From positions 48,371 through 112,370 of the forward strand of contig JAWVYO010000001.1 of the NCBI GenBank assembly GCA_033722675.1: 64,000 bases of DNA, written 5' to 3'. This document shows positions 4,516 through 53,030 of the stretch, piece after piece. Positions within the stretch are counted from its first letter, which is position 1. Each line of letters opens with the position of its first letter. The stretch is from Acidimicrobiia bacterium (GTDB lineage: Bacteria > Actinomycetota > Acidimicrobiia > Spongiisociales > UBA11373). The notes beneath the pieces were generated by a model, which saw only the letters and a program-made list of their open reading frames with translations, had not been told where the DNA came from and did not search any database. The translations under genes and the position numbers were made by a program.

Positions 4516-6258
<1,743 letters not shown>

Positions 6259-6290
6259 CCAGACAGCCTACGAGGCCGCAGAATGGAGGC

Positions 6291-6953
6291 ATGGCACGCC
6301 TGTCCGTCCTCGCAGCGCTCGTCGCGGCCGTCGCCGTCGCGCTCGCCGATCCCGGCGGGACCCCCGTGGCCTGCGTCGCTTCGGGAACCTGCGACCGGAT
6401 GGCGGTGGGGCCCGGCCCGATCGCCCAGCCTGCGGCCGCATGGTCGTCGCTGGCACTCGGCGCGGTGGCGGTATGGACCGCAGGCAGGGGGCCGCAGGGG
6501 CGCATCGTCGGCGCGGCGACAGCGCTGTCGGCCGCCGGGGCCCTGTGGTACCACGCGGCACTCACGACCTGGGCGGGGCGGGTGGACGCCGCCGGCGTGG
6601 CGGCGGTGACGGTGGCGCTGGCGATCGCTGCCATCGTCCCCGTCGAGCGCTCGACCGGCGCGGCGGCGCTCGGAGCCCTGGCGGTGGCCGTGGCCGCGGC
6701 CACCGGGCTCGCCGAGGCCCTGTCCCTCGTGGCGGGGGCGGCCGGTGCGGGAGCCGTGCTGCGGTCGGTCCGCCGCCGGCCTCTCCCCCCGCTCCTCGTG
6801 GCGATCGCCGCCCTCGGCACGGGGGCGGCGGCGTGGCGATGGGGTCCCCACGCCGCCTGGCACGTGCTCGCCGCCGTGGCCGTCGCCGCCCTGCTGGCGC
6901 ATCTCGACGGCGCTCGTATCCTTCGCGTCGACGACCCGGGGGGCCACCGGTGA
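6291..6953 (+). CDS. hypothetical Ala-rich integral membrane protein
   Basis: Five or six predicted TM helices with strongly GC-biased third positions in this frame. Its TGA overlaps the GTG of the next gene (GTGA). No recognisable family. Confidence 0.45.
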   Translation: MARLSVLAALVAAVAVALADPGGTPVACVASGTCDRMAVGPGPIAQPAAAWSSLALGAVAVWTAGRGPQGRIVGAATALSAAGALWYHAALTTWAGRVDAAGVAAVTVALAIAAIVPVERSTGAAALGALAVAVAAATGLAEALSLVAGAAGAGAVLRSVRRRPLPPLLVAIAALGTGAAAWRWGPHAAWHVLAAVAVAALLAHLDGARILRVDDPGGHR

Positions 6954-8485
6954 GCAGACGCCGCGGCTACATCAGCTTCTTCGATCGCGTCGGACGCCGA
7001 CGCGGCGACACGCTGTTCTACGCCGGCACCCGTCGCGGGCCGTTGCTGCCGACCCTGGCGGTGATCGGCCTGATCGCCGGCGTCGTGACGGTGTGGTGGC
7101 TGCTCACGAGGCCCGACGAGCGCCTCGCCTCCCAGGAGGTGACGGTGCCCGAAGGTGTCACCGTCCCGTCGCTGCTCACCCCCGTCGAGACGACCACCAC
7201 CATTCCCGAGGCGGTGCTGTCGTCGATGGCCTGCCCGAGCCCCCTCACCACGGAGTGGAACACCTTCCAGGGGAACGCCGGGCGGACGGGCTGTGTCGAG
7301 GCGCCGACGATCACCCAGCCGCGCATCCTGTGGACCTTCGAAGTCGGCATCCAGGGCTGGCTCAACAACCCGGTCATCGGCAACGGGCGCGTGTTCGTCG
7401 GCAGTGCCGGCCGTGCCCAGTTCGAGGCCGACGACGGCGACGCCGTGTACGCCATCGACCTGGCGACCGGTCGTGAGGCGTGGGTCTTCGAGGACCCCAC
7501 CCTCGACGTCAACGGCGTCTCCTTCGCCGACGACGTGGTCGTGGCCACCGGGGACGAAGGCAACGTGTGGGCCATCGACGCCTCGCAGACCGACTTCGGC
7601 GGACGGCTGCTCTGGGAGGCGACACGGGACACGTCGGTGTTCGGGTCGCCCCTCATCATGGGCGACCGGGTGATCGTGGGCGACGCCGACGGGATGGTCG
7701 CCGCGTATTCGATGGAGGACGGGACCCCGCTGTGGGAGGCGCAGGTCGAGGGCGCGATCCGCGGAGGCCCCTCCAGCGACGGGGAGATCATCGTCGTGGC
7801 GGGCGAGCAGCGTGAGATCCTCGCCCTCGACCGGGATGGCACCGAGCTGTGGCGCAAGACGCTCCGAGGACGCGACATCACCGCGAGCACCGAGATCTTC
7901 GCCGCCCCCACGATCTCCGACGGCGTCGTGATCCTGTCGCTGGTGCGCGACGACGTGTACGCCGACCCGGCGCTCATGGCGCTCGACCTGGCCACCGGCG
8001 TGGATCTGTGGATCGGCACGGACACGGGTTCGGTCAAGGACGACTGGGGCGACCTGGCGTGGGGCAACCTGCGGGCCTCGCCCGCCACGGTGGGCGATCT
8101 CGTCGTCTCTGCGGAGACGTACTCACAGGGGGCGGTCGTGCTCGGCGCCGACGACGGCGAGACCCGGGGAGCCGTGACGTCTGGACCGTTCTGCATCCCC
8201 CACTGGCCCTCGCCCGCCGTGGTCTCGAATCAGGTGATCCTGCCCCGGCACGATGGCGGCATCTACGCCGTCGACCTGGCCTCGGGCAACGTCGTGTGGT
8301 CCCTCTTCCTCGGGGACTCCCAGGCGCGGGGGACCTTCCCGCCCGAGTACACCGAGGACGAGTCGTTCTGTGAGTGGGGCCCGGAGGGGACGGCCTCGAT
8401 CCTGTCGTCACCGGCGATCTCCCAGGACGGGATCGTCGTGGTGGGCACGCTGGAGGGCGTGCTCTACGCGATCGCCGACACCTAG
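6950..8485 (+). CDS. membrane-anchored PQQ-like beta-propeller repeat protein (BamB/YVTN-like)
   Basis: GTG start at 6950 inside a longer track ORF. N-terminal TM helix (LLPTLAVIGLIAGVVTVWWLL) followed by repeated propeller blades (AIDLATGREAW, LWEAQ, LWRK, VWSLF). Confidence 0.7.
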   Translation: MSRRRGYISFFDRVGRRRGDTLFYAGTRRGPLLPTLAVIGLIAGVVTVWWLLTRPDERLASQEVTVPEGVTVPSLLTPVETTTTIPEAVLSSMACPSPLTTEWNTFQGNAGRTGCVEAPTITQPRILWTFEVGIQGWLNNPVIGNGRVFVGSAGRAQFEADDGDAVYAIDLATGREAWVFEDPTLDVNGVSFADDVVVATGDEGNVWAIDASQTDFGGRLLWEATRDTSVFGSPLIMGDRVIVGDADGMVAAYSMEDGTPLWEAQVEGAIRGGPSSDGEIIVVAGEQREILALDRDGTELWRKTLRGRDITASTEIFAAPTISDGVVILSLVRDDVYADPALMALDLATGVDLWIGTDTGSVKDDWGDLAWGNLRASPATVGDLVVSAETYSQGAVVLGADDGETRGAVTSGPFCIPHWPSPAVVSNQVILPRHDGGIYAVDLASGNVVWSLFLGDSQARGTFPPEYTEDESFCEWGPEGTASILSSPAISQDGIVVVGTLEGVLYAIADT

Positions 8486-9771
8486 TCGGCCACCGCCTCC
8501 ACCGCCGCCTCGAGGCCCGGATCGACACCGGCTTCGAGGTCCGCCAGCGTGGTCGGCGCCGACACGTCGGGCGGGACGCCGATCCCGTCGAAGGACGTGC
8601 CCGAGGCGTCCTCGGTCCGCTGGTTGGGCAGTCCCAGCGACCAGCCCACCGGCAGGGCCCGGGCGAGGATGGGGGAGGGAGACCCGGCGGTCGGCTCGCC
8701 CACGAAGGTCACCCCGGGGACCTGGCGCAGTGCGAGCACGAGGAGCTCGGCCGCGCCGCTCGTGCCGGGACCGACCAGCACCGCGAGCTCGCCGGGGAAC
8801 ACGCCCGTCGGCGCCGGGCGCACGACGATCGAGCCGGCGTCGACGAAGTCGTCGGTGCCGCCCACCCGGGCGCGGCGCGAGGCCACGAGGGTCTCCTCCT
8901 GGACGAACCGCGAGGCGAGGATCATGCCGAGGCCCTCGACGCCGCCGTCGTTGGCGCGGAGGTCGAGGACGAGCCGGGTCTCGGGGCCGCTCGACTCGAT
9001 GAGGCCGTCCACGACGCGCGCCATCGCCTCTCCCGTCCGTGCGACCCCGCCGGCGAAGGGCTCGAGTGTCGTGACGGCGAGGTACCCGACACCGTCGGCG
9101 GCGAGGCCGGCCACCATCGCGCCATCGCCCTCCGTGCCTTCGACCGACAACAGATGTTCGCCCGCCAGGGCGGCGGCTGCGAGGCGGTCGGCCACGGGGG
9201 CCGCTGCGGATCGCCACACGCCCTCGGGGACGCCCTGCTGGGGCTCCTGGACGGACAGGCGCACCTGGGGGTCGTCGAGCGGGTCGAGGAGCGCGGTGAT
9301 CGCCTCGAAGGCCTCCGACGGCGGGCTGCCGGCCGTGAGCCCGTCGCCGAGCACCGCTGCACGCGCCGCCCACCCGTCGTCGAGGGAGCCGGCGTAGTGG
9401 TCCTCCATGGCCTCCACCACGATCCCGAGCGACGACGGGGCATCGTCGTCGTAGAACTCCTCGGGGATCACGCACCCGTCCGGGAGGTCGGACCGTTCGT
9501 ACCGGACGATGCGCCCGGCCTCGCGGAGGATCAGTTCGTCGTCGCCCTCCAGGGTGAGCACCTCGGCGATCCCCCGGGACCCGCTCTCCGCCACCCGGAC
9601 GCAGTGATCGTCGCCGTATTCGTACACCTCGACGGCGCCCTGGGAGATGGTGATGTAGCCGCCGAAGCCGATGGAGCGCCACTGGCCCTCGAAGGGTTCC
9701 GCCTCGGCGGTCGAGGGGCCACACGAGGCGAGCGCGAGCACGGCGACGCAGGCCGCGACGAGGGCTCTCAC
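8482..9771 (-). CDS. S41 family C-terminal processing peptidase, lipoprotein
   Basis: Signal peptide with lipobox (M)RALVAACVAVLALASCG. Catalytic-Ser motif GTSGAAE and a PDZ-like region. GTG start at 9771 overlaps the NuoF-like stop (GTGA). Confidence 0.8.
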   Translation of the reverse strand: MRALVAACVAVLALASCGPSTAEAEPFEGQWRSIGFGGYITISQGAVEVYEYGDDHCVRVAESGSRGIAEVLTLEGDDELILREAGRIVRYERSDLPDGCVIPEEFYDDDAPSSLGIVVEAMEDHYAGSLDDGWAARAAVLGDGLTAGSPPSEAFEAITALLDPLDDPQVRLSVQEPQQGVPEGVWRSAAAPVADRLAAAALAGEHLLSVEGTEGDGAMVAGLAADGVGYLAVTTLEPFAGGVARTGEAMARVVDGLIESSGPETRLVLDLRANDGGVEGLGMILASRFVQEETLVASRRARVGGTDDFVDAGSIVVRPAPTGVFPGELAVLVGPGTSGAAELLVLALRQVPGVTFVGEPTAGSPSPILARALPVGWSLGLPNQRTEDASGTSFDGIGVPPDVSAPTTLADLEAGVDPGLEAAVEAVAD

Positions 9772-11069
9772 CCCGCGGCCTCCGACCGGGTGAACCGGTC
9801 GCCGTCGTGGTCGACGAGCTTGGGCACCGTCAGTCCCCGGTGGCCGGGACACGATCCGTCGAGGTGCCCGGCGACGTCGTCCCAGAACCGCTCGACGATG
9901 CCGGCGGCGAGGTCACGGCCCGCGGCGCCGAGGCCGCAGCGATTGGCGTCGGTCACCCGCTGGGTCCACGCGGCGAGTTCTTCGACCGTCCCGGTGTCCC
10001 CGGCGCCCTCGTGGAGCACGTCGAACCGCTCGGCGAGCGCGGCGGTGCCCAGCGAGCACGGCGGGCACTGACCGCACGACTCCGCGGCGAGGAAGCCCCC
10101 CAGCACGGCACCCGCCTCGAGGAGGCACGTGGTGTCGTCGTACACGATGAACCCGCCGGAACCGAGGCCGGCGCCGGCGCGCTGCAGGGCGCCGAACTCC
10201 AGCGGCGTGTCGAGATCCGCGGCGGTGAGCGGCGCGTTCGACACCCCCGAGAGGATCGCCTTCGGACGGCGCCCGGCCTCGAGACCCTCGCCGACGCCGT
10301 ACACCAGCCACGACAGCGGCGTCCCCAGCCCGAGTTCGACGACCCGCTCCCGCCGGACGTCGCCGGACACGGTGAAGACCATGGTGCCGGGCGAGTCCTC
10401 GGTCCCCCGCGATCGGAACCATTCCGCGCCCTCGCGCAGGATGGAGGGGACGTGGGCCAGGGTCTCGACGTTGTTGACGACCGTGGGGTTGGGTGACGTC
10501 GGCGTCCCGAAGAGCCCGCTCACGTAGGGCGGGTACAGGGTCGGCTTCGGGTCGCGTCCGGCGACCACCTCGAGGAGCGCCTTCTCCTCGCCGAAGAGGT
10601 AGTCGTCGGGCCCGGTGACCACGGCGATCGGCAGGTCCCCGGTCATGCCGGCGTCCGCCATCTCGGCGAGGGCCGTCTCGAGCCGGTCGATCTCGGGCCG
10701 GAACGCAGCCTTGACGGCGACGTAGGCGGCCGACGCACCGACGGCGAGCGCGGCGATCACCACCCCGTCGATCACCTGATAGGGATTGGCGCGCAGGATG
10801 GCCCGGTCCTTGAACGTCCCCGGTTCGCCCTCGGCCCCGTTGCAGACCACGTACCGCTCCCCGCTTTCGCCGCGGACGCCGGACCACTTGATGGCCGTCG
10901 GGAATCCGGCGCCGCCGCGACCCCGGAGCCCGGCAGCCCGGATCTCGGCGATCGTCGCCTCGGGGCCGACGGTGCGGGCCCGCTCGACGGCGACACCGCC
11001 TCCGGCGGCGCGATGGGCGTCGAGATCCTCGACGGCGGCGAGCAGGCCGCCCTCGCCGTCGTCGGTCAT
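9768..11069 (-). CDS. NuoF-like NADH-binding flavoprotein (51-kDa subunit family), standalone
   Basis: FMN motif GRGGAGFPTAIKW, NADH site GEPGTFKDR and 4Fe-4S motif ESCGQCPPCSLGT. ATG at 11069 overlaps the WS/DGAT stop (ATGA). No nuoE or other nuo genes nearby. Confidence 0.85.
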   Translation of the reverse strand: MTDDGEGGLLAAVEDLDAHRAAGGGVAVERARTVGPEATIAEIRAAGLRGRGGAGFPTAIKWSGVRGESGERYVVCNGAEGEPGTFKDRAILRANPYQVIDGVVIAALAVGASAAYVAVKAAFRPEIDRLETALAEMADAGMTGDLPIAVVTGPDDYLFGEEKALLEVVAGRDPKPTLYPPYVSGLFGTPTSPNPTVVNNVETLAHVPSILREGAEWFRSRGTEDSPGTMVFTVSGDVRRERVVELGLGTPLSWLVYGVGEGLEAGRRPKAILSGVSNAPLTAADLDTPLEFGALQRAGAGLGSGGFIVYDDTTCLLEAGAVLGGFLAAESCGQCPPCSLGTAALAERFDVLHEGAGDTGTVEELAAWTQRVTDANRCGLGAAGRDLAAGIVERFWDDVAGHLDGSCPGHRGLTVPKLVDHDGDRFTRSEAAG

Positions 11070-12649
11070 CGGCCCCCCGATCCGTTGCCCGACGGTTCCT
11101 CCTCCGCCACGTCGGCCTTCTTGACGGTGGTCGTCGTCCGGGTCGCGGTCGCCCCCTTCGCCGAGGGGGTCGAGCCGGCCTTCTTCGATGCGGCCTTCTT
11201 CGTCTTCTTCCCCGTGGTGCCCGTCCCCCGGCCCGCCCGCTCCGCGGCCGCTTCGAGGTCGTCCACCGACCCGGCGATCCGCTCCACGAAGCGGTCGATG
11301 TCGGGGACCAGGTCCCAGTCGGAGTTGACGCCCCAGTACATACGGCCGTCGTAGGAGAACAACGCCACGCCGATCCCGTGGTTCGCCCACAGCGGCACCA
11401 TCGGGTAGTTCGCCGTCATGCGCGCCCCCAGGAGGTAGAGCGGGATCTGGGGCCCGGGGACGTTCGTCACCGTCATGTTGAACGGACGGACCGTGCCCGC
11501 CGCCACCCGCGCCGCCACCGACAGCAGCGTCCCGGGGGTCCACGAGGCGGTCTGCGTGAGCATCGCGGCGCCGAGGGCCTGGTCGGTGTCCTTGAGGTGC
11601 GACGTCGCCTCCCGGACCCGGGCGAGGCGATCGGTGGCGTCCGGCTCGTCGATGGGCAGATCGATGAGCCACATCGTCACCTGGTTCCCGAGCTCGCCCT
11701 GCTGGTCGTCGTCGCGGATGCTGACCGGCACCATGACCCGGAAGTCGAGGTCGGACACGTCGACGCCCCGATCCTCGGCGAGGAAGCTGCGCACCGCGCC
11801 GGCGACGGCGGCGATGACCACGTCGTTGACGGTGCCCCCCAGCGCGTTCTTGATCCCCTTGACACGGTCCAGCTCGGTGTCGTGGAAGGCGATCCGCCGA
11901 TTCGGCCCGATCGGATCGTTGATCGGCGTGCGCGAGGCGTTGGAGAACCACCCGGACCTCGCCGAGTCGATCATCGCACCGACGCGGTGGCGCACCTCGT
12001 CGGCCACGTCCTTCGAGCTCTCCACGAACCCGGCGAGGCTCTTCGTCGCCTCGAGGGGGAGCCGGGCCCGCCGGATCGCCTCGTCGCGGAGCAGTTCGAG
12101 GCTCGACGGCGCCGGCCGCGGCTCGAACTCGTCGGGGTCCTCGATCGTGTCGTCGGCGAGCGGCGACAGCGTCACCTTCAGCAGGTCGACACCCGAGATG
12201 CCGTCGATCATGCAGTGGTGGACCTTCGTGACGAGCGCCACCTTGTCGTCCTGGAGGCCCTCGACCACCCAGATCTCCCACAGCGGCCGGGTCCGGTCGA
12301 GTCGCTGGCTGTAGATGCGTCCGGCGAGTGCCCGGAGCTGCTCGTCGCCGCCGGGCGCCGGCAACGCCGTGTGCCGAACGTGATAGGTGAGGTCGAAGTG
12401 CTCGTCGTCGACCCACACGGGGTGGCGCTCGATCGGGATCCACTCGAGGCGCTGGCGGTACCGGGGGATGTACTTGAGCCGTCCGGCGACGAAGGCACGC
12501 AGGCGCTCGATGTCGATGCCGCCGTCGGGCCGGCGGAGGTGCTCACCCTCGAAGACGAGGGTGCCGCCGACGTGCATCGGATGCTCCCGACCCTCCATCG
12601 CGAGGAACGTGGAGTCGAGGAAGGAGAGTCGCTCGTAGTGGGTGGACAT
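11066..12649 (-). CDS. wax ester synthase/diacylglycerol acyltransferase (WS/DGAT)
   Basis: Catalytic HHxxxDG motif (HHCMIDGISG). Start at MSTHYERLSFLDSTFL (12649). C-terminal Lys-rich tail GKKTKKAASKKAGS...VKKADV. Confidence 0.85.
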   Translation of the reverse strand: MSTHYERLSFLDSTFLAMEGREHPMHVGGTLVFEGEHLRRPDGGIDIERLRAFVAGRLKYIPRYRQRLEWIPIERHPVWVDDEHFDLTYHVRHTALPAPGGDEQLRALAGRIYSQRLDRTRPLWEIWVVEGLQDDKVALVTKVHHCMIDGISGVDLLKVTLSPLADDTIEDPDEFEPRPAPSSLELLRDEAIRRARLPLEATKSLAGFVESSKDVADEVRHRVGAMIDSARSGWFSNASRTPINDPIGPNRRIAFHDTELDRVKGIKNALGGTVNDVVIAAVAGAVRSFLAEDRGVDVSDLDFRVMVPVSIRDDDQQGELGNQVTMWLIDLPIDEPDATDRLARVREATSHLKDTDQALGAAMLTQTASWTPGTLLSVAARVAAGTVRPFNMTVTNVPGPQIPLYLLGARMTANYPMVPLWANHGIGVALFSYDGRMYWGVNSDWDLVPDIDRFVERIAGSVDDLEAAAERAGRGTGTTGKKTKKAASKKAGSTPSAKGATATRTTTTVKKADVAEEEPSGNGSGGR

Positions 12650-12699
12650 GCGGGGCCTCCCCCCGGGGCGGGCTGACGGGACCGGCGTAGGCTGCCCCA

Positions 12700-13593
12700 A
12701 TGCTACGGCGCACGGTTCGGCTGCGGGCACCCGTCGACCTGCGGGCGACGCTCGGGGCGCTGAGCGCCGGTCCGGCGGATCCGACCACGATCCTGCGCCC
12801 GGGCGAGGCGTGGCGGGGCACCAGGACACCCGATGGTCCCGCCACCCTCCGCCTGAGCGGATCCGGCCGTGTCGTCGATGCCGAGGCGTGGGGTCCGGGG
12901 GCCGGATGGCTCCTCGAGGCCGCTCCGGGGTTCGTGGGGGCCGACGACGAACCCTTCGCGTCGGACCATCCCCTCGTCGGGCGGCTGGCCCGCCGGCACG
13001 CAGGGCTGAGGGTCACACGCACCGCCCGGGTCGTCGAGGTCACGCTGCGCGCCGTGCTCGAACAGCGCGTGACGGGCCGCGAGTCGAAGCGGTCGTGGGC
13101 CCGGCTCGTCCGTGCCACCTCGGAGCCCGCCCCGGGCCCGGCGCCCGGTCTGTTCCTCCCGCCCGACCCGGCCGTCGTCGCCGGACTCGCTTACCACCGC
13201 TTCCATCCCATGGGGGTGGAACGCACCCGTGCCGAGACGCTCATCCGGGTGGCCCGCCACGCCCGGCGTCTGGAGGACACGGCGGCCATGCCCCTGGACG
13301 ACGCCCACCGACGCCTGCAGGCGGTCCGGGGTGTCGGGCCGTGGACCGCCGCCCTCGTCGCCGGGGTGGCCCTCGGCGACGCCGACGCCGTGCCGGTGGG
13401 CGACTACCACATCCCCAACACGGTCGCCTGGGCCCTGGCCGGAGAGCCGCGGGCGGACGACGACCGCATGCTCCACCTCCTCGAGCCCTTCACCGGCCAG
13501 CGCGGACGGGTCGTCCGTCTCCTGAAGGCGGCCGGCATCCGGGCCCCGAAGTACGGCCCGCGCGCACCGATCCGCTCCATCGAACGGATCTGA
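12700..13593 (+). CDS. DNA-3-methyladenine glycosylase II-like protein (AlkA/HhH-GPD superfamily)
   Basis: HhH-GPD region (LQAVRGVGPWTAALVAGVALGDADAVPVGDYHI) with an AlkA-like N-terminal domain. Confidence 0.7.
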   Translation: MLRRTVRLRAPVDLRATLGALSAGPADPTTILRPGEAWRGTRTPDGPATLRLSGSGRVVDAEAWGPGAGWLLEAAPGFVGADDEPFASDHPLVGRLARRHAGLRVTRTARVVEVTLRAVLEQRVTGRESKRSWARLVRATSEPAPGPAPGLFLPPDPAVVAGLAYHRFHPMGVERTRAETLIRVARHARRLEDTAAMPLDDAHRRLQAVRGVGPWTAALVAGVALGDADAVPVGDYHIPNTVAWALAGEPRADDDRMLHLLEPFTGQRGRVVRLLKAAGIRAPKYGPRAPIRSIERI

Positions 13594-17172: not shown

Positions 17173-18062
17173 CCGCCCCCACCTGGTTCACTCGCTCGAT
17201 CGCCGCTCCCGCGTCGGATCGCACGACCACCGTGGAGGAGTGCGACATCCACTGGCTCGACTGGGCCGGCCCCTCCCCCGACGCCCCGGGCCTCGTGTTC
17301 GTACACGGCGGGGCGGCCCACGCCCACTGGTTCTCGTTCGTCGCCCCGATGTTCACCCATCAATGGCACGTCGCCGCCCTCGATCTCAGCGGACACGGCG
17401 ACTCGGGCCACCGTGATCGGTACGACTACCAGACCTGGGCCGCCGAGATCGTCGCCGTCTCGGAAGCGGCGGGATTCCCCGGACCCCCCGTGATCGTCGG
17501 ACACAGCATGGGGGGCACCGTGACGACCGCCCTCGCCGCCCACCACCCCGCCGCCGTCGCGGGCGCGATCATCGTCGACGCCCTGGTGTCCCGACCGGAC
17601 GCCGAGTCGGAGGCGGCGTCGCGGGGCCGCACGTTCCGCGCCCCGGGGGTCTACGACACCTTCGACGAAGCCCTCGGCCATTTCCGGCTCATCCCGCCGC
17701 AGCCGGCCTCCAACCCCTTCATCCTCGACCACATCGCCCGGCACTCCCTCCACGAGACCGATCGGGGTTGGACGTGGAAGTTCGATCCCCACGTCTTCGA
17801 TCGCGCCCGGGTCCTGCTCGGCGCCGACCAGGTGCGCTCCGTCACCACCCGGGTCGCCCTCCTGCGCGGCGAACACAGCGTCGTGGTCCCCCCGGACGTC
17901 GCCGAGTACCTCTACGGGCTCCTCGGACGTGTCGCGCCGGTGGTGACCGTCCCCGAGAGCCACCACCACGTGTTCGTCGATCAGCCCCTCGCCTTCATCA
18001 CGGCCATCCGGGCGCTGCTCCAGGACTGGGACCACTCGAGCCCCCGGCGCCCTCCGACCTAG
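17169..18062 (+). CDS. alpha/beta hydrolase
   Basis: Nucleophile elbow GHSMGG, HGGAAHA and catalytic His near the C-terminus. ATG 17169 overlaps the MBL stop (ATGA). Confidence 0.8.
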
Positions 18063-22786: not shown

Positions 22787-25700
22787 CTACATGTTCCGTC
22801 GGTACCGGCCCCCGACGTCGTAGAGCGCCTCGGTCATCTGCCCGAGCGTCGCCACCTTCGACGCCTCCATGAGCGATGCGAAGAGGTTGTGGCCGCCGAC
22901 GGCGGCCTCGCGGAGCCGGTCGAGGGCGGTGGGCGACCGATCGGCGTTCCGCTCCTGGACGAGCCGCAGGTTCCGGATCTGGCGATCCTTGTCGGCGTCG
23001 GTGGACCGCACGAGGTCGTCGGGGATGACGAAGGGGGATCCCTCGCTCGACAGGAAGGTGTTGACGCCGACGACCGGATACGCCCCGGCCTCCTTCTGCC
23101 GCTCGTAGTACAGCGACTCCTCCTGGATCTTCGTGCGCTGGTACTGGCGCTCCATCGCCCCCAGCACGCCGCCGCGCTCGCTCAGCCGCACGAACTCGGC
23201 GAGCACCGCCTCCTCGACGAGGTCGGTGAGCTCCTCGACGATGAAGGACCCCTGGAGGGGGTTCTCGTTCTTCGCGAGGCCCAGCTCCTTCGTGATGATC
23301 AGCTGGATGGCCAGCGCCCGGCGGACCGACTCCTCGGTCGGGGTGGTGATCGCTTCGTCGTAGGCGTTCGTGTGGAGGCTGTTGCAGTTGTCGTAGACCG
23401 CATAGAGCGCCTGCAGCGTCGTGCGGATGTCGTTGAATCCGATCTCCTGGGCGTGGAGCGATCGGCCCGAGGTCTGGATGTGATACTTGAGCATCTGCGA
23501 CCGCTCGTTCGCGCCGTACCGGTGCTTCATCGCCCGGGCCCAGATGCGACGCGCCACCCGCCCGATGACCGCGTACTCCGCGTCGATCCCGTTGGAGAAG
23601 AAGAAGGACAGGTTCGGGGCGAAGTCGTCGATGTCCATGCCCCGCGCCAGGTAGTACTCGACGAAGGTGAATCCGTTGGCCAGCGTGAAGGCCAGCTGCG
23701 TGATCGGGTTCGCGCCCGCTTCGGCCATGTGATAGCCCGAGATCGACACCGAGTAGAAGTTCCGGACGTCGTGGCCGATGAACCACTCCTGGACGTCGCC
23801 CATCATCCGCAGTGCGAACTCGGTGGAGAAGATGCAGGTGTTCTGCGCCTGGTCCTCCTTGAGGATGTCCGCCTGCACCGTGCCGCGCACCGTCGACAAC
23901 GTCTCTGCCGCGATCCGGTCGTAGACGTCGCGGGGCAGGACCTCGTCGCCCGTGACGCCCAGCAGGAGCAGCCCCAGGCCGTCGTGGCCGTCGGGCAGCG
24001 GGCCCTCGTAGGCGGGCCGTGGCCCGTCCCCGTACCGCTCGGCGAGGATCGCCTCGACGTCGGCCTCGAGACCGTTCGCCCGGATGTGCTTCTCACAGGC
24101 CTGGTCGATCGCGGCATTCAGGAAGAAGGCCAGGATCATCGGCGCGGGGCCGTTGATCGTCATCGAGACGGAGGTCGTCGGATCGGCCAGGTCGAAGCCC
24201 GAATACAGCTTCTTGGCATCGTCGAGCGTGGGCAGCGACACGCCGGAGTTGCCGACCTTCCCGTAGATGTCCGGCCGTTCGTCGGGGTCGTTCCCGTACA
24301 GCGTCACCGAGTCGAAAGCGGTGGACAGGCGCTTCGCCGGCATGCCGGCGGCCAGGTAGTGGAAGCGTCGGTTCGTCTGCTCCGGCGGGCCCTCACCGGC
24401 GAACATCCGGGTCGGATCCTCGGCGGTACGTTTCAGCGGGTAGATGCCCGCCGTGTAGGGGAAGCGTCCCGGGACGTTCTCGCGCAGCGCCCAGGACAGC
24501 CGATCGGCCCACGCCGTGAATCCCGGGAGCGCCACCTTCGGGATCCGGGTGTGGGACAGCGTCTCGTGAACGAGCGGCGCCCGGACTTCCCGGCCGCGCA
24601 CCTCGTAGACCAGCTCGTCGCCCTCGTACGCCTCGACGAGGTCGTCCCACCCCTCGAGGATCTGCAGGCAGCCGGGATCGAGCGCCTCCTCGGCCTCGAC
24701 GATGGCACCCGCCAGGCCCTCGACCTCGCCGAGCTCCTCGCGAGCCCCCCGCAACCGCTCCAGGCGGCGGGCGGCCGCGACCTGTTCGCCGATCCACCGC
24801 TCGTGGTCGCGATGGGCCTCGACGATCTCGGCGAGGTACCGGGACCGCTCCGGCGGCACGACGTGCTGCTTCGCGCCGTCGCCGGTGGGGAGCTCCAGCC
24901 CGGGCTCGAAGGAACGGTCGCCCGTCTCGGCGGCCACGGCGCGCATCACCGCCTCGTAGAACCGGTTGGTGCCCGGATCGTTGAAGGCGCTGGCGACGGT
25001 GAGGTGCACCGGGAGGTCCTCGTCGAGGCCGTCGAAACGGGTGTGGTTTCGGCGGTACTGCTTGCGGACGTCACGGAGGGCGTCGGCGGCGCCCCGCTTG
25101 TCGGCCTTGTTGATGGCGATGAGGTCGGCGAAGTCGAGCATGTCGATCTTCTCGAGCTGCGTCGCCGCCCCGTACTCGGGCGTCATCGCGTAGAGCACGA
25201 CGTCGGCGTGGTCGACGATCTCGGTGTCGGCCTGCCCGATGCCCGAGGTCTCGAGGACCACGAGGTCGAACCCGGCCGCCTTCAGGATGTCGATCGTCGG
25301 CCGGACGGCCTCCGACAGGGCGAGGTTCGACTGGCGGGTGGCCAGCGATCGCATGTAGGCGCGGGGATGGGGGATGGCGTTCATCCGGATGCGGTCGCCG
25401 AGGAGGGCGCCGCCGGTCCGCCGCTTCGTCGGGTCGACGGAGACCAGGGCGATCGTCTTGTCCGGATGGTCGAGGAGGAAGCGTCGGACCACCTCGTCGA
25501 CGAGCGACGACTTGCCCGATCCGCCGGTGCCGGTGATGCCGACCACCGGCGCCGCCGACGCCGCGGCGCGCTCCGCCAGTGCTTCCAAGACGGTCGGATA
25601 CTTCTCCGGATGGAGCTCGGCCGCCGAGATCAGCGACGCGATGCGCCCGTGGTCGCCGACCGTCAGCGTCTCGACGTCCTCGTCGCCGACCTCGCCGAGC

Positions 25701-26122
25701 GGATGCTCCGCCAGCCGGAGCATGTCGTCGACCATGCCCTGCAGGCCGAGGTCGCGTCCGTCGTCGGGGGAGTAGATCCGTGTGATGCCCGCTGCCATGA
25801 GCTGCGCCCCCTCGTCCGGCAGGATCGTCCCGCCGCCCCCGCCGAAGATCCGCACGTTCCCGGCCCCGCGCTCGCCGAGGAGCCGGTGGAGGTACCGGAA
25901 GAACTCCATGTGTCCGCCCTGGTAGGAGGTGACGGCCACGGCGTGGGCGTCCTCCTGCACGGCGGCGTCGGCGATCTCGAGCGCGGAACGGTTGTGGCCG
26001 AGGTGGACGACCTCGGCACCGGAGGCCTGGAGCATCCGGCGGAAGATGTTGATCGAGGCATCGTGCCCGTCGAAGAGCGACGTCGCCGTCACGAACCGCA
26101 CGGTGGGGGGTCGATCGCTCAT
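22787..26122 (-). CDS. icmF: fused isobutyryl-CoA mutase IcmF (B12-binding domain + MeaB-like GTPase + mutase substrate domain)
   Basis: N-terminal B12 domain ([15 protein letters not shown]), MeaB P-loop ([12 protein letters not shown]...NKADK) and C-terminal mutase barrel ([10 protein letters not shown]...YHIQTSG). Start [10 protein letters not shown] at 26122. Confidence 0.9.
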
Positions 26123-26154
26123 CCCGTCCTCTCCGGGCCCGCCGGGGCCCGGGC

Positions 26155-27192
26155 TCATTCTGGCAGCGGACCGGCCGTTCCCAGGGGCCAGACCCGTTCC
26201 GGCCGCCAGCCGACGACGTCGCCCGGCGCCGGGATCGCCGCCTCCCGTACCCGGAGGAGGACCCTGCCGGCCGGCGTGTCGAGCACCACGTCGGTATGGG
26301 GGCCACGAAAGCGGAGCGACACGACCCTCCCGCGAGCCGGCCCCCCCAGGGCCGCCCACTCGGGCCGGAGGGCGACCCTGCTGCGTCCGTCCCCGGCTCC
26401 CCGTACGGGGAGCACCGCGTCGCCGAGCACGATCGCGCCGTCACGCATGTCGACCGTCAGCACCGAGACCGGACCGGTGAGCGCGGCGGCCCATGCATCC
26501 ACCGGCCGGTCGTACACGTCCGTCGGGGACCCGACCTGGACGATCCGTCCGTCCCGCAGCAGGGCGACCCGGTCGGCCAGGCCCAACGCCTCGGCGGCGT
26601 CGTGGGTGGCGACGAGGGCGGCGGCGCCCGACGCCGCGCGATGGGCCGCCACGAGCTCTTCCGCCGCCGCCCGCGCCGCGGGGTCGAGATGGGCGGTGGG
26701 TTCGTCGAGGAGGAACACGTCGGGCTCCGACGCCAGCGCCCGCGCCAGCCCGACGCGCTGCTGCTGGCCACCCGACAGCTCGGCGGGTCGACGATCGCCG
26801 AGGTCGCCGATGCCGAGGCGCTCGAGGATCGTCGCCGCCCGGCGACGTGCCTCGGCGCGGGGCGTTCCGGCGGCCTCGAGGGGAAACGCCACCGTGTCGA
26901 GGGCGCCGAGGTGTGGCCACAGGGCGTAGCTCTGGAACACGAATCCCACGTTGCGTCGCTCGGGCGGCACGTACCGACCGCCGCCCGACACCCGGACGCC
27001 GGCGACGTCGATCGTCCCGGTCTCGACGCCGACGAACCCGGCCACCGCCGACAGCAACGTGGTCTTCCCGCTGCCGCTCGGCCCGAGGAGGCAGACGACT
27101 TCGCCGTGGCCGACGGCGAGGTCGACGCCGTCGAGGACGGTGGCGCCGCCGAGGCGCACCTCGACGCCGGCGAGGGACACCGCGGGCGTCAC
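26155..27192 (-). CDS. ABC transporter ATP-binding protein (FbpC/PotA family, with C-terminal TOBE-like domain)
   Basis: Walker [31 protein letters not shown] start 27192 overlaps the permease stop (GTGA). Confidence 0.85.
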
Positions 27193-30578: not shown

Positions 30579-31910
30579 CTAGGAGCCGGCGGCCTCGGCC
30601 ACGCGCCGGGCCACCTCGGCGTGGACCGAACGGTCGAGGGCGTCGGGCAGGAGCCGGTCCTCGTCCGCCAGGTCGGCGAGCGCACGCGCCGCCGCTCGCC
30701 GCATGGGCAGGTCGATCGCACCCGCACCGGCGTCCAGTGCCCCCCGGAAGAGTCCGGGATAGGCGAGCACGTTGTTCACGATCGATCCGTCGGCGGCGAT
30801 GGCCGCCCCGGCCGCCTCCGCCGCCTCGATCTCGATCTCGGGGATCGGGTTGGAGATCGCGGCGATGATCTGACCGGGTCGGACCCGTGCGGGGTCGAGC
30901 AGCCCGGGGCGTCCCGTCGACAGGACGAGCACGTCGGCTCGCTCGACCACGCTGTCGAAGAAGTCCGGATCCGACGACGCCTCGAGCACGACGTCGTCGA
31001 CCTCGGTGAACGAACGGAGATGCTCGACGGCCGCCTCCCCTGGGTCGAAGGCCAGCACCGAGGCGAACGGGAAGCTGCGGGCCAGTCGTGCGATCGCCGA
31101 GCCGGCGGCGCCCAGGCCGATCTGTCCGAAGACGAGGTCCTCCAGGGGCCGGTCGACGATCCGGGCGGCCGAGAGCACCGCGGCGAGCACGACCACGGCG
31201 GTCCCGTGCTGATCGTCGTGCATGACCGGGACGTCGAGGTCGGCCACGAGCCGGTCCTCGATCTCATAGGCAGCCGGCGTCGAGATGTCCTCGAGGTGGA
31301 TGCCCCCGAACCCGGGGGCGATGCGACGGACGACGTCGACCATCTCGTCGGCGTCGGCCGCGTCGACCACGATCGGCACCGCGTTGAGGTCGACGAGCAT
31401 CCCGTAGAAGAGCGCCTTGCCCTCCATCACCGGCAGGGCCGCCCGGGGACCGATGTCGCCGAGCCCCAGGACACGGGTGCCGTTGGAGACGACGGCGACC
31501 GTGCGGCCCTTCCACGTGTATGTCGACGCCAGGCTCGGGTCGTCGGCGATCGCCCTCGACACCCGCGCCACGCCGGGGGTGTACACCTCCCGCACGTCCT
31601 GGAGGTTGCGGATCTCCACCGTGGGGCGCACCTCGATCTTGCCCCCCTCGTGGACCGCGAAGACCTTGTCGACGCTCTGTTCGACCAGTTCCACGCCCGG
31701 CTCCGCCTCGAGGGCCCGGCGGATCTCCTCGATGGCGTCGTCGCCGGGAGCGATGACCGTCACGTCGCGGATGTTGTACTCACGCCCGATGGCGAGGGTC
31801 TCGATCTCGCCGATGTGCGCCCCGTGCTCGCCGATCCGGGCGAGGGCGCGCGACAGCGTCCCCGGCTGACGGTGCGTCTTGATGCGGAAGACCTCGTCGC
31901 GTTCGATCAT
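30579..31910 (-). CDS. NAD(P)-dependent malic enzyme with N-terminal ACT domain
   Basis: ACT-like N-terminus (MIERDEVFRIKTH...) followed by the malic enzyme core (VHEGGKIEV, YTPGVA, NAD-binding GLGAAG). Confidence 0.85.
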   Translation of the reverse strand: MIERDEVFRIKTHRQPGTLSRALARIGEHGAHIGEIETLAIGREYNIRDVTVIAPGDDAIEEIRRALEAEPGVELVEQSVDKVFAVHEGGKIEVRPTVEIRNLQDVREVYTPGVARVSRAIADDPSLASTYTWKGRTVAVVSNGTRVLGLGDIGPRAALPVMEGKALFYGMLVDLNAVPIVVDAADADEMVDVVRRIAPGFGGIHLEDISTPAAYEIEDRLVADLDVPVMHDDQHGTAVVVLAAVLSAARIVDRPLEDLVFGQIGLGAAGSAIARLARSFPFASVLAFDPGEAAVEHLRSFTEVDDVVLEASSDPDFFDSVVERADVLVLSTGRPGLLDPARVRPGQIIAAISNPIPEIEIEAAEAAGAAIAADGSIVNNVLAYPGLFRGALDAGAGAIDLPMRRAAARALADLADEDRLLPDALDRSVHAEVARRVAEAAGS

Positions 31911-31970
31911 CCCGGCATCCTGCCACAGCACCTGGTCCGCTGCGGCGCCCACCGCGATACCGTGGCGGCC

Positions 31971-32810
31971 GTGCGACGCACCGCCCTCCTCGTGCTCCTC
32001 GTCTCGCTCGTCGCCGCGGCGTGCGGCGGCGGGGACCCGACGTCGGGGACGAGCCCGTTCCCCGCCGACGCCTTCGCCTTCCCCGCCTCGAGCAACGTCG
32101 CCGTCGGGCCCGAACGCCTGCTCATCGCCGTCTCCGACGAGTCGGGGACGAGGCTGCCCTCGCCCGATGCGCCCGTCGAGGTCGTGCTCTACCCCGAGGA
32201 CCGCCGAGACGAGGCGCTCACCGTCGATGCCGACTTCGTCTGGGCGATTCCCGACGTGAGCGGCCTCTACAAGGTGAACGTCGTGTTCGACGAGCCGGGG
32301 ATCTGGGAGGCGGAGGTGCGGCCCGCCACCGGTCCGGGCCTCGAGCCCTTCCCCTTCCAGGTGCTCCCCGAGCCGCTGACGGTGGGGGTCGGCGAGCCGG
32401 CCCCGCGATCGGACACCTTCACCGCCGACGACGTCGACGACCTGTCGGAGATCACGACCGATCCCGACCCCGAACCCGACTTCTACGAGCTGAGCGTCGC
32501 CGAGGCCGTGACGTCGGGCCGCCCCAGCGTGATCGTGTTCGCCACCCCGGCCTTCTGCCAGACCGCGATCTGCGGGCCCACCATGGACTCGATGAAGGAA
32601 CTGGCCCCCCGATTCCCCGACGCGAACTTCCTCCATGTGGAGGTCTTCACGAATCTCGACGACCCCGAGAACCTGCAGACGGTGCCGGCGGTCGTCGAAT
32701 GGGGGCTCCCCACCGAGCCGTGGATCTTCGTCGTCGACGAGACGGGCACCGTCGTCGGCCGGTTCGAGGGCACGGTGACCGAGAGCGAGCTGGCCGACCT
32801 GCTGGGCTGA
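31971..32810 (+). CDS. lipoprotein with C-terminal thioredoxin-fold-like domain
   Basis: GTG start giving MRRTALLVLLVSLVAAACGG lipobox. C-terminal VIVFATPAFCQTAICGPT (Cx4C) resembles redoxin/SCO-like folds. Divergent from the malic enzyme, 60-bp spacer. Confidence 0.5.
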   Translation: MRRTALLVLLVSLVAAACGGGDPTSGTSPFPADAFAFPASSNVAVGPERLLIAVSDESGTRLPSPDAPVEVVLYPEDRRDEALTVDADFVWAIPDVSGLYKVNVVFDEPGIWEAEVRPATGPGLEPFPFQVLPEPLTVGVGEPAPRSDTFTADDVDDLSEITTDPDPEPDFYELSVAEAVTSGRPSVIVFATPAFCQTAICGPTMDSMKELAPRFPDANFLHVEVFTNLDDPENLQTVPAVVEWGLPTEPWIFVVDETGTVVGRFEGTVTESELADLLG

Positions 32811-40986: not shown

Positions 40987-41171
40987 CCGCCGTCCATAGA
41001 ACGACGTCGAGTCGTGACTCTCGCGTTTGCCCGCGCCGAAGCTGGCCGTCTCCGTCGAGATGGTGCCCTCCAGGATCCTGGCGGCCACGGTAGCCCGGTT
41101 ATCCACAGGGACGACGGCAATCTCGCGCCGCGGGCGGTGATGGACGCGCGCTGCGTGGCGGCCGGCGGGGA

Positions 41172-41981: not shown

Positions 41982-42066
41982 CCGGGCGACGATAGCCCGC
42001 CGGCGGAACCGCCCGCCGGGCACGATGGCCCCTCGGTATCCTCGTCCCACGATCGGAAAGGACCAC

Positions 42067-52915: not shown

Positions 52916-53030
52916 GGTCCTCCTCGCGCTCGTTGGCGGGAGTGTACCGAGCCGGTCGACCGCCTCCGACGGCCGCCGCGAGTCGTCCGCTGGAGGTGCG
53001 CGACCGGGACGACCACTAGGTTCGACGTCC

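What the first reader, a model, noticed from the sequence alone, without database searches (positions are those of the whole stretch)
8482..12649. Tightly coupled operon: wax-ester/triacylglycerol synthase - orphan NuoF-like flavoprotein - S41 lipoprotein peptidase
Three functionally disparate genes are joined by 4-nt stop/start overlaps (ATGA at 11066-11069, GTGA at 9768-9771). A complete NuoF (FMN, NADH and N3 4Fe-4S motifs) sits alone without NuoE or other complex I genes, sandwiched between a cytoplasmic neutral-lipid synthase and a secreted protease. A standalone NADH-oxidising flavoprotein co-translated with WS/DGAT may link NADH status to storage-lipid synthesis, or it may serve an unknown redox partner.
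Basis: partly seen in the sequence, partly recalled or inferred. Interest (0 to 1): 0.6.

Follow-up and report, generated by a model that had tools for sequence, protein, structure and literature searches.

The report
Orphan NuoF-like gene inserted in lipid operon
Three overlapping genes really do form one unit, but the lone NADH-flavoprotein gene is an optional insert between an older wax-ester-synthase/lipoprotein pair and has been deleted again in a relative, so there is no sign that it controls fat storage.

Summary
On the minus strand, WS/DGAT (12649-11066), a 433-aa NuoF-like flavoprotein (11069-9768) and an S41-fold lipoprotein (9771-8482) are joined by ATGA and GTGA overlaps. The interpretation does not hold. 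Of 160 related NuoF-like loci from genomes and metagenomes, only 3 carry this arrangement. Elsewhere the gene sits alone in varied contexts, for example next to mraZ. Sister lineages with the same ~13-kb synteny have WS/DGAT overlapping S41 directly, with no NuoF-like gene. One relative (L172) keeps only a 204-nt stub of the gene between intact WS/DGAT and S41. Four-nt overlaps are also common here (9 of 31 same-strand pairs) and often join unrelated genes. The NuoF-like protein has intact FMN, NADH and N3 motifs. It scores 306 bits against a 559-bit NuoF cut-off and is only about 37% identical to mycobacterial NuoF. It therefore belongs to a widespread, uncharacterised orphan family, not to complex I proper. 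The "S41 peptidase" has Gly and Ser in place of the catalytic Ser/Lys dyad in all 26 homologues, as in IRBP, so it is probably a binding protein rather than a protease. Modest interest.

The parts
11066..12649 (-). WS/DGAT (wax-ester synthase / diacylglycerol acyltransferase), 527 aa. The HHCMIDG active-site motif is at residues 144-150. ATG start is preceded by GGAGG at 12660-12656.
   Evidence: Pfam WS_DGAT_cat 1.2e-69 and WS_DGAT_C 5.9e-29. TIGR02946 423 bits against a 310 cut-off. Motif position. Start context.
11069..11254 (-). Lys/Thr/Ala-rich low-complexity C-terminal tail of WS/DGAT (residues 466-527). It lies outside the Pfam domains and varies in length among relatives (469-555 aa proteins).
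11066..11069 (-). ATGA junction: the WS/DGAT stop TGA overlaps the NuoF-like ATG.
   Evidence: The same 4-nt overlap is possible in L001, L081, L082, L083/84, L088 and L089.
9768..11069 (-). Orphan NuoF-like flavoprotein, 433 aa. Motifs: FMN loop GLRGRGGAGFP (47-57), NADH motif NGAEGEPGTFKDR (77-89), GEEKAL (160-165), NNVET (199-203), N3 [4Fe-4S] ligands C332/C335/C338/C378. It has no NuoE-like or ferredoxin extension.
   Evidence: Pfam Complex1_51K 6.7e-42 and NADH_4Fe-4S 1.2e-14. TIGR01959 306 bits, below the 559 cut-off. Family invariants. PDB phmmer. AF2 pLDDT 85, TM about 0.85 to NuoF, HydB and NfnB.
9768..9771 (-). GTGA junction: the NuoF-like stop TGA overlaps the GTG start of the S41-fold gene. 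GGAGG lies at 9783-9779.
8482..9771 (-). S41-fold lipoprotein, 429 aa. Signal peptide with lipobox LASC (Cys17). Extra N-terminal beta-rich domain. S41 domain at residues 228-404 with Gly339 at the nucleophile position and Ser364 at the Lys position, so it is a probable pseudo-protease or binding protein of IRBP / Bacteroides 4L8K type.
   Evidence: Pfam Peptidase_S41 1.3e-18. PDB hits IRBP 9frx_A 7.5e-14, 4l8k and 8vcb, plus the alignment to H. pylori CtpA S300A/K325A/Q329A (9ku3). G339 is invariant and S364 nearly invariant in 26 homologues. AF2 pLDDT 90.7, TM 0.80-0.83 (target-normalised) to 4l8k and 8vcb.
12650..12699 (.). 50-nt divergent intergenic region between WS/DGAT and the HhH-GPD glycosylase gene (12700-13593, +). 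It is the only non-coding space upstream of the three genes and is the presumed promoter region.
   Evidence: No sigma-70 consensus hit, which is uninformative for this phylum.
8482..8485 (.). CTAG: the stop codons of the S41-fold gene (-) and of the convergent PQQ/BamB-like beta-propeller gene (6950-8485, +) overlap by 4 nt, leaving no room for a terminator.

Best explanation
The region is one transcription unit of an Acidimicrobiia genome whose three products most likely work independently. The NuoF-like gene is absent from or decayed in close relatives: WS/DGAT and the S41-fold lipoprotein gene overlap directly in sister lineages, and which arrangement came first is not resolved. The NuoF-like gene belongs to a large family of 'loner' genes that elsewhere stand alone, for example divergent from mraZ. 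In one clade it came to lie exactly between the pair, with a 4-nt overlap on each side, so it rides on the WS/DGAT promoter and on translational coupling (inferred). Its protein is a complete NuoF-type module (shown). It would take a hydride from NADH onto FMN and pass single electrons through one N3-type [4Fe-4S] cluster to an unknown acceptor (inferred). It does this without NuoE or NuoG encoded nearby, so it is not the complex I subunit. It is dispensable for its two neighbours, because relatives have lost it in place. The third protein is an exported lipoprotein with the S41 fold but without the catalytic Ser/Lys dyad, so it probably binds a ligand rather than cutting proteins (inferred).
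For: The overlaps and ribosome-binding sites are. Of 80 genome loci, only L001 carries WS/DGAT and S41 near the NuoF-like gene. Of 80 metagenome loci, only L088 and L089 do. Clustering of all flanking ORFs finds no neighbour family in more than 13 of 80 loci. Distant members lie next to mraZ (L085, L087, L090, L099) or rpsL (L086). Close relatives at 62-78% identity keep the triad and both overlaps, but they also keep the surrounding synteny. WS/DGAT orthologues at 62-65% identity in the same syntenic block are followed directly by S41 with a TTGA or GTGA overlap and no NuoF-like gene (L168, L169, P0194), or by neither gene (L170). L172 has a 204-nt stub between intact WS/DGAT and S41. The stub encodes about 35 N-terminal and about 35 C-terminal NuoF-like residues in different frames (E 3.6e-9 and 6.9e-10), and the ATGA and GTGA junctions are still present. 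NuoF-like proteins from triad loci form one clade whose sister is mraZ-adjacent. In the window, 9 of 31 same-strand pairs overlap by 4 nt, and these include SDR|alpha-amylase, IcmF-like mutase|ABC ATPase, SBP|DUF6390 and CNNM|glyoxalase. The TIGR01959 score of 306 is below the 559 cut-off. The best PDB relatives score almost the same across HydB/NfnB, mycobacterial NuoF and Thermus Nqo1, at 232-272 bits and 33-38% identity.
Against: Both 4-nt overlaps survive in at least six distinct relatives, while the S41-fold protein has diverged to 36-43% identity. The arrangement is therefore stable, and co-expression may be useful in that clade. No expression data exist. The electron acceptor and any protein partner of the NuoF-like protein are unknown. 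All solved homologues work together with a NuoE-like partner, so standalone activity is not shown. Whether the same genome has a canonical nuo operon could not be checked. Only a class-level statement is available: most UBA5794 Acidimicrobiia MAGs encode NuoA-N (PMC12008989). The trees are neighbour-joining without support values.
Confidence: 0.7

Rival explanations
1. In this clade the NuoF-like flavoprotein was recruited into the WS/DGAT operon so that NADH oxidation or sensing is co-expressed with neutral-lipid synthesis, for example when reducing equivalents are in excess.
For: Both overlaps are kept in the window and in L001, L081, L082, L083/84, L088 and L089, despite 62-78% NuoF-like identity and 36-61% S41 identity. 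The gene is intact, with all cofactor motifs and GC3 of 0.93 like its neighbours.
Against: 157 of 160 related loci lack the adjacency. Sister lineages run WS/DGAT-S41 without it. L172 deleted it in place. The block around the triad is also syntenic in those relatives, so conservation of the triad is not specific to it. Overlaps in this genome often join unrelated genes. WS/DGAT chemistry needs no redox partner (established knowledge of the family).
Confidence: 0.17
2. It is the genuine complex I NuoF, separated from nuoE and the rest of a fragmented nuo operon.
For: It has the full NuoF length and fold, intact FMN, NADH and N3 motifs, and TM about 0.85 to complex I NuoF structures.
Against: It scores 306 bits against TIGR01959, whose cut-off is 559, and also falls below the cut-offs of NF010120 and NF008436. 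It is only about 37% identical to NuoF of M. smegmatis, which belongs to the same phylum. It scores no closer to NuoF than to HydB/NfnB-type subunits. The family is conserved as an isolated gene across several phyla with no widely shared neighbour gene. It is lost in L172 and absent from the same slot in other relatives. L068 even carries two copies of the orphan type.
Confidence: 0.03
3. At family level, the orphan NuoF-like proteins are NADH-dependent reductases for small redox partners such as group-III-like truncated haemoglobins or nitrite/NO enzymes. The window copy does the same job for a partner encoded elsewhere.
For: A truncated-haemoglobin-like gene (weak Bac_globin hit, sometimes fused to DUF1971) and/or a NirK-like multicopper protein lies within about 4 kb in 12 of 80 genome loci. 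These fall in at least three or four separate clades, including two Acidobacteriota. A further 4 metagenome loci show the same.
Against: This is a minority of loci. Other recurrent neighbours exist (CBS-pair protein, SufC/SufT, formate dehydrogenase, mraZ), and none is universal. No such gene was found among the genes called in the window. No biochemical data exist.
Confidence: 0.1

Closest known systems
NuoF / Nqo1 / NDUFV1, the 51-kDa NADH-binding subunit of respiratory complex I (TIGR01959)
   Same: Same length and fold, with TM about 0.85 to 8e9g_F, 3i9v_1 and bovine or Paracoccus NuoF. Same FMN loop, NADH-binding motif and four-Cys N3 cluster motif.
   Different: It scores far below the equivalog cut-off (306 against 559 bits). 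It is 33-38% identical to NuoF and the other solved relatives of this fold. It is not next to nuoE, nuoG or any nuo gene in the window, and no neighbour family recurs widely across the 160 related loci. It is dispensable in close relatives.
HydB / NfnB / HoxF / FdsB-type NADH modules of bifurcating hydrogenases, NfnABC, NAD-reducing hydrogenases and formate dehydrogenases
   Same: These give the best PDB sequence scores (9bov_B 272 bits, 7q4v_B 267) and share the same core fold.
   Different: Those subunits are 500-630 aa and carry N-terminal NuoE-like and/or C-terminal ferredoxin domains. They are also encoded next to their catalytic partners. The window protein matches only their core (for example residues 116-521 of 9bov_B) and has no such neighbours. 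Where an FdsB-like gene sits beside FdhA (L013, L017), it is a separate, long-branched paralogue.
WS/DGAT family (TIGR02946; Acinetobacter AtfA, mycobacterial Tgs type)
   Same: Both Pfam domains are present, the score is above the family cut-off, and the HHxxxDG motif is present.
   Different: It carries a Lys/Thr/Ala-rich C-terminal tail of about 60 aa. It is translationally coupled to downstream genes with no evident role in lipid synthesis.
IRBP/RBP3 modules and Bacteroidales S41 proteins 4L8K and 8VCB (S41 fold without a PDZ domain)
   Same: Best sequence hit is IRBP (9frx_A, 7.5e-14). Best structural hits are 4l8k and 8vcb (target-normalised TM 0.80-0.83). As in IRBP, the nucleophile position is Gly and the Lys position is not Lys. 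IRBP is described as a bacterial-origin S41 relative that lost its catalytic residues and binds retinoids and fatty acids (PMC11750400).
   Different: It is a bacterial lipoprotein with an extra N-terminal beta-rich domain. No ligand is known. 4L8K and 8VCB keep a Ser at the nucleophile position, whereas this family has an invariant Gly.
C-terminal processing peptidases CtpA / CtpB / Prc (S41A)
   Same: It shares the Peptidase_S41 domain.
   Different: No PDZ domain was detected. Catalytic Ser300 and Lys325 of H. pylori CtpA align with Gly339 and Ser364. NCBIfam Ctp models score 20-37 bits against cut-offs of 525-665.

Membership tests
NuoF of complex I (TIGR01959 equivalog) | Complex1_51K FMN/NADH domain with the Gly-rich FMN loop and the NADH motif | tested here: met
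   PF01512 6.7e-42. GLRGRGGAGFP at residues 47-57 and NGAEGEPGTFKDR at 77-89 are invariant in the family.
NuoF of complex I (TIGR01959 equivalog) | N3 [4Fe-4S] site: C-x2-C-x2-C plus a distal Cys | tested here: met
   PF10589 1.2e-14. C332, C335, C338 and C378 are invariant.
NuoF of complex I (TIGR01959 equivalog) | Score at or above the curated equivalog cut-off | tested here: not met
   306.4 bits against 558.65. NF010120 scores 262 against 389, and NF008436 scores 190 against 749.
NuoF of complex I (TIGR01959 equivalog) | Encoded in a nuo cluster next to nuoE and nuoG | tested here: not met
   No complex I family was hit by any called gene of the 64-kb window. No conserved neighbour was found in 160 related loci.
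NuoF of complex I (TIGR01959 equivalog) | Assembles with NuoE and NuoG and feeds electrons to quinone | not testable with these tools
   This needs biochemistry or a complete genome.
HoxF / HydB / FdsB-type diaphorase subunits | Fused NuoE-like and/or ferredoxin domains, and adjacency to hydrogenase or formate dehydrogenase genes | tested here: not met
   The 433-aa protein aligns only to the core of the 520-630-aa chains. No such neighbours are present.
WS/DGAT (TIGR02946) | Both WS/DGAT domains, a score above the cut-off, and the HHxxxDG catalytic motif | tested here: met
   422.7 bits against 309.95. HHCMIDG lies at residues 144-150.
S41 C-terminal processing peptidase | Peptidase_S41 domain / fold | tested here: met
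   PF03572 67.5 bits against a cut-off of 24. Foldseek gives probability 1.0 matches to S41 structures.
S41 C-terminal processing peptidase | Catalytic Ser nucleophile | tested here: not met
   The position aligned with CtpA S300 (9ku3 mutant) and with the Ser of 4l8k and 8vcb is Gly339. It is invariant in 26 homologues.
S41 C-terminal processing peptidase | Catalytic Lys general base | tested here: not met
   The position aligned with CtpA K325 is Ser364. It is Ser in more than 90% of homologues and Arg in L088.
S41 C-terminal processing peptidase | PDZ substrate-binding domain | tested here: not met
   There is no PDZ hit in Pfam.
IRBP-like non-catalytic S41 homologues | S41 fold with lost catalytic residues | tested here: met
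   IRBP modules align as TGGVAE / TATAAE against the window's TSGAAE, and GEPTAGG against GEPTAGS. The statement that IRBP lost its catalytic residues comes from PMC11750400.
IRBP-like non-catalytic S41 homologues | Binds hydrophobic ligands (retinoids, fatty acids) | not testable with these tools
   This needs ligand-binding assays.
Bacterial lipoprotein | Signal peptide ending in a lipobox with an invariant Cys | tested here: met
   MRALVAACVAVLALAS-C17. Cys17 is invariant in 26 homologues.
Functionally coupled operon (conserved gene neighbourhood) | Adjacency conserved across divergent lineages, or arising independently | tested here: not met
   Only 3 of 160 scanned loci carry it, and all triad NuoF-like proteins form one clade. 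The gene is absent or decayed in sister lineages.

The most novel reading that the evidence does not exclude
Two things that the evidence does not exclude. (a) The orphan NuoF-like proteins could be a new class of single-subunit, NuoE-independent NADH:acceptor oxidoreductases (FMN plus one [4Fe-4S]). The class would be widespread in Acidimicrobiia and scattered in Acidobacteriota, Bacteroidota and others. In some lineages it might serve truncated haemoglobins or NirK, and in this clade it might have been co-opted for co-expression with storage-lipid synthesis. (b) The pairing of WS/DGAT with an exported IRBP-like pseudo-S41 lipoprotein could be a real lipid-handling module, in which a fatty-acid or lipid-binding lipoprotein is coupled to neutral-lipid synthesis.
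Probability: 0.15. Interest if true: 0.55.

Novelty: new variant of a known kind. Interest (0 to 1): 0.3.

Why it matters
As an operon this is ordinary, and the proposed link between NADH and lipid storage is not supported. Three points remain worth recording. First, a large, uncurated family of complete NuoF-type proteins is encoded without NuoE, NuoG or any constant partner, whereas every solved relative works inside a multi-subunit complex. The family's acceptor and role are open questions for people who study complex I modules and flavin/iron-sulfur enzymes. Second, the case shows how 4-nt overlaps can mislead. A gene can sit precisely between two coupled genes and be lost again, here caught in the act in L172, so tight coupling in a compact high-GC genome is weak evidence of shared function. 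Third, the "S41 peptidase" annotation hides a family that lacks the catalytic dyad and resembles IRBP. That matters for annotation. Together with its pairing to WS/DGAT, it gives a testable idea about lipid binding at the cell envelope.

Tried and rejected
- **Promoter and terminator scan** of 8200-13000. It found no promoter-like site and one weak terminator-like site inside WS/DGAT. It was judged uninformative for an actinobacterial genome.
- **Literature searches** for an orphan, standalone or paralogous NuoF and for truncated-haemoglobin reductase partners. None described this family.
- **My first GC3-based gene caller**. It failed on lower-GC loci, so precomputed gene calls from the look-up of encoding contigs were used instead.
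- **Second NuoF-like hit in L068.** I considered it as a possible canonical nuoF, but it falls inside the orphan family and is not followed by nuoG-like genes.
- **SufC as a conserved neighbour.** I considered it (13 of 80 loci), but the genes lie about 1-6 kb away on either strand, so this was not pursued.
- **Matching contig lengths across the three protein searches** to count triads. The matches proved unreliable and were dropped.
It was redone with database homologues.
- **A canonical nuo operon in the same genome** could not be checked.
- **A phylogeny against HoxF, FdsB and NuoF references** was replaced by PDB and NCBIfam score comparisons, because reference sequences could not be imported.


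Full report
**1. What is in the sequence**

The window has about 72% G+C, and its closest database relatives are labelled Acidimicrobiia. Three genes lie head to tail on the minus strand.

- **WS/DGAT** runs from 12649 to 11066 (527 aa). Its ATG is preceded by GGAGG.
- **The NuoF-like gene** runs from 11069 to 9768 (433 aa). Its ATG overlaps the WS/DGAT stop as ATGA.
- **The S41-fold gene** runs from 9771 to 8482 (429 aa). Its GTG overlaps the NuoF-like stop as GTGA and is preceded by GGAGG.

These are WS_DGAT_cat plus WS_DGAT_C (TIGR02946, 423 bits against a 310 cut-off; HHCMIDG at residues 144-150), Complex1_51K plus NADH_4Fe-4S, and Peptidase_S41.

Upstream lies a divergent HhH-GPD glycosylase gene, only 50 nt away. 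Downstream lies a convergent PQQ/BamB-like propeller gene, and its stop codon overlaps the S41 stop by 4 nt.

**2. Is a 4-nt overlap special here?**

It is not. With a GC3-based gene call of the whole window, 9 of 31 same-strand neighbour pairs overlap by exactly 4 nt, and so do 3 of 6 convergent pairs. The other overlaps join these pairs:

- a short-chain dehydrogenase and an alpha-amylase-family enzyme;
- an IcmF-like fused mutase and an ABC ATPase;
- a solute-binding protein and DUF6390;
- an Rv1476-like membrane protein and proline dehydrogenase;
- a CNNM transporter and a glyoxalase.

In this compact genome the overlap shows co-transcription and coupling. It does not show shared function.

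**3. The NuoF-like protein**

The cofactor motifs are all present and invariant across 24 aligned family members. They are the FMN loop GLRGRGGAGFP, the NADH motif NGAEGEPGTFKDR, GEEKAL, NNVET, and the N3 ligands C332, C335, C338 and C378. The AlphaFold model is confident (pLDDT 85, pTM 0.88). It superposes on NuoF, HydB, NfnB and FdsB at TM about 0.8-0.86 with 30-38% identity.

It is nevertheless not the complex I equivalog. TIGR01959 gives 306 bits against a cut-off of 559. PDB sequence scores are nearly flat across HydB/NfnB-type subunits (260-272 bits), M. smegmatis NuoF (253), Thermus Nqo1 (232), FdsB (about 205-211) and E. coli NuoF (191). A true actinobacterial NuoF would be expected to stand out against the mycobacterial protein.

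None of the 47 genes called in the window hits a complex I family. Whether a canonical nuo operon lies elsewhere in the genome could not be checked. A study of a related order reports NuoA-N in most MAGs (PMC12008989).

**4. Neighbourhood seen from the NuoF-like gene**

A pattern scan of one genome per species returned 579 relatives. The best 80 loci (45-63% identity, up to 10 kb of flank) come mostly from Acidimicrobiia. Some come from Acidobacteriota, Bacteroidota, Dehalococcoidia and Hydrogenedentota. Only L001 has WS/DGAT and S41 beside the gene.

All-against-all clustering of the flanking ORFs found no neighbour family in more than 13 of 80 loci. A metagenome scan added 80 loci, and only L088 and L089 carry the triad.

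Gene calls around more distant members show a monocistronic gene divergent from mraZ (L085, L087; also L090 and L099), or one between DUF2254 and rpsL (L086).

Close relatives at 68-78% identity (L081-L084) keep the triad. They also keep the surrounding block: Lactamase_B, YceI, MarR, Na_Ca_ex, HhH-GPD, WS/DGAT, NuoF-like and S41, and in L083, the only contig long enough, also PQQ, PolX and F420H2_quin_red.

In all triad loci both 4-nt overlaps are available. In a neighbour-joining tree the triad proteins form one clade whose sister is mraZ-adjacent.

**5. Neighbourhood seen from WS/DGAT: the decisive part**

WS/DGAT orthologues at 62-65% identity sit in the same syntenic block and are followed directly by the S41-fold gene. 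The junction is a 4-nt overlap (TTGA in L168, GTGA in L169, and the same coordinates pattern in P0194), and there is no NuoF-like gene between them. L170 has WS/DGAT alone, followed by the convergent PQQ gene.

L172 has a 204-nt gap between WS/DGAT and S41. That gap encodes about 35 N-terminal residues of a NuoF-like protein (66% identical to L083, E 3.6e-9). These are followed, in another frame, by about 35 C-terminal residues (63% identical, E 6.9e-10). The ATGA and GTGA junctions are still in place. In other words, about 1.1 kb of the gene was deleted in situ, while both neighbours stayed intact.

On the WS/DGAT tree, triad and pair-only lineages are interleaved, and the sub-clades match those of the NuoF-like tree. 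This fits one gain followed by at least one demonstrated loss and probably several. Spread by recombination through the conserved flanks would fit as well.

Either way, the NuoF-like gene is an optional passenger between WS/DGAT and the S41-fold gene. A more distant WS/DGAT (56% identity, L171) has neither neighbour.

**6. The third gene is probably not a protease**

Its best PDB sequence hit is IRBP/RBP3 (7.5e-14), followed by the Bacteroidales proteins 4L8K and 8VCB. The AlphaFold model (pLDDT 90.7) matches 4l8k and 8vcb at target-normalised TM 0.80-0.83 and has an extra N-terminal beta-rich domain.

In the alignment to H. pylori CtpA S300A/K325A/Q329A (9ku3), the nucleophile position falls on Gly339 and the lysine position on Ser364. 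The Ser of 4l8k and 8vcb also aligns with Gly339. Gly339 is invariant and Ser364 nearly so in 26 homologues, and no PDZ domain is detected.

IRBP has the same substitutions. It is described as a bacterial-origin S41 relative that lost its catalytic residues and binds retinoids and fatty acids (PMC11750400).

The protein has a clear lipobox (LASC, with Cys17 invariant). I infer an exported, lipid-anchored binding protein. A lipid ligand would make sense of the pairing with WS/DGAT, but this is a hypothesis only.

**7. Mechanism, and what is shown versus inferred**

- **Shown:** the gene structures, overlaps and cofactor motifs; the non-equivalog status of the NuoF-like protein; the clade restriction of the triad; its absence or decay in sister lineages; and the loss of the S41 catalytic dyad.
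- **Inferred:** transcription from the 50-nt divergent region upstream of WS/DGAT, and translational coupling through ATGA and GTGA.
- **Also inferred:** the NuoF-like protein oxidises NADH at FMN and hands single electrons via one [4Fe-4S] cluster to an unknown acceptor, independently of WS/DGAT.
- **Hints from other lineages** about the acceptor are weak and absent from this window. They include truncated-haemoglobin-like genes and/or NirK-like genes near the NuoF-like gene in 12 of 80 genome loci, a CBS-pair gene immediately downstream in about ten loci, and Suf and formate dehydrogenase genes in a few.

**8. Verdict**

Four literature searches found no description of this orphan family. 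PGAP names members only by their Pfam domain. I rate it a new variant of a known kind, of modest interest.

Noticed in passing
L172:7500-7708: This is a pseudogene stub of the NuoF-like gene. It holds about 35 N-terminal and about 35 C-terminal codons in different frames, between intact WS/DGAT (6001-7503) and S41 (7708-9000). The ATGA and GTGA junctions are retained. It is an internal deletion caught in place.
   Followed up: yes
window 11069-11254: WS/DGAT ends in a Lys/Thr/Ala-rich low-complexity tail of about 60 aa (GKKTKKAASKKAGS...TTTTVKKAD). The tail is variable or absent in relatives (469-555 aa proteins), and L172 has a similar AKK-rich tail. It is reminiscent of the basic tails of actinobacterial nucleoid or lipid-droplet proteins. 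Its function is unknown.
   Followed up: partly
L008, L010, L030, L038, L043, L053, L054, L055, L056, L069, L071, L076 (within about 4 kb of the NuoF-like gene); also L149, L154, L164, L166: Group-III-like truncated haemoglobin genes (weak Bac_globin hits, some fused to DUF1971) and/or NirK-like multicopper proteins lie beside the orphan NuoF-like gene. This occurs in several Acidimicrobiia clades and in two Acidobacteriota. It may hint at a nitrite or NO-related redox partner.
   Followed up: partly
L062:11353-12024; L035, L079, L049, L104, L105, L111, L114, L118, L121: A CBS-pair protein is encoded immediately downstream of the NuoF-like gene in one sub-clade, with a 4-nt overlap in L062.
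   Followed up: no
window 8482-8485, 18059-18062, 50756-50759: Three of six convergent gene pairs overlap by 4 nt at their stop codons (CTAG at 8482-8485). No room is left for terminators, so transcripts must overlap.
   Followed up: partly
L088:630-1973: A group II intron-type reverse transcriptase/maturase ORF lies just upstream of WS/DGAT, in the place where relatives have the HhH-GPD gene. This reading rests on the sequence only.
   Followed up: no
L068:224-1408 and 10040-11254: One Acidimicrobiia MAG carries two copies of the orphan NuoF-like type about 9 kb apart. Both fall inside the orphan family in the tree.
   Followed up: partly
window 50756-53761: A 1001-aa protein combines a NarI-like membrane domain, a 4Fe-4S dicluster domain and two CCG (HdrD/GlpC-like) domains. 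Its stop overlaps that of the convergent ABC ATPase gene by 4 nt. It is a possible membrane-bound redox module.
   Followed up: no
window 22787-26158: An IcmF-like fusion (B12-binding domain, MeaB GTPase and methylmalonyl-CoA-mutase domains; 1123 aa) overlaps by 4 nt with an ABC transporter ATPase gene.
   Followed up: no
window 46539-49343 and 31902-32807: Two confidently coding ORFs (934 aa and 302 aa, GC3 above 0.9) have no Pfam match. The short minus-strand ORF at 32483-32773 is probably an antisense artefact of the latter.
   Followed up: no
window 41137-45708: A 1523-aa fused 2-oxoglutarate dehydrogenase carries E2-like acyltransferase and E1 domains, which is the actinobacterial OdhA/Kgd-type architecture.
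   Followed up: no
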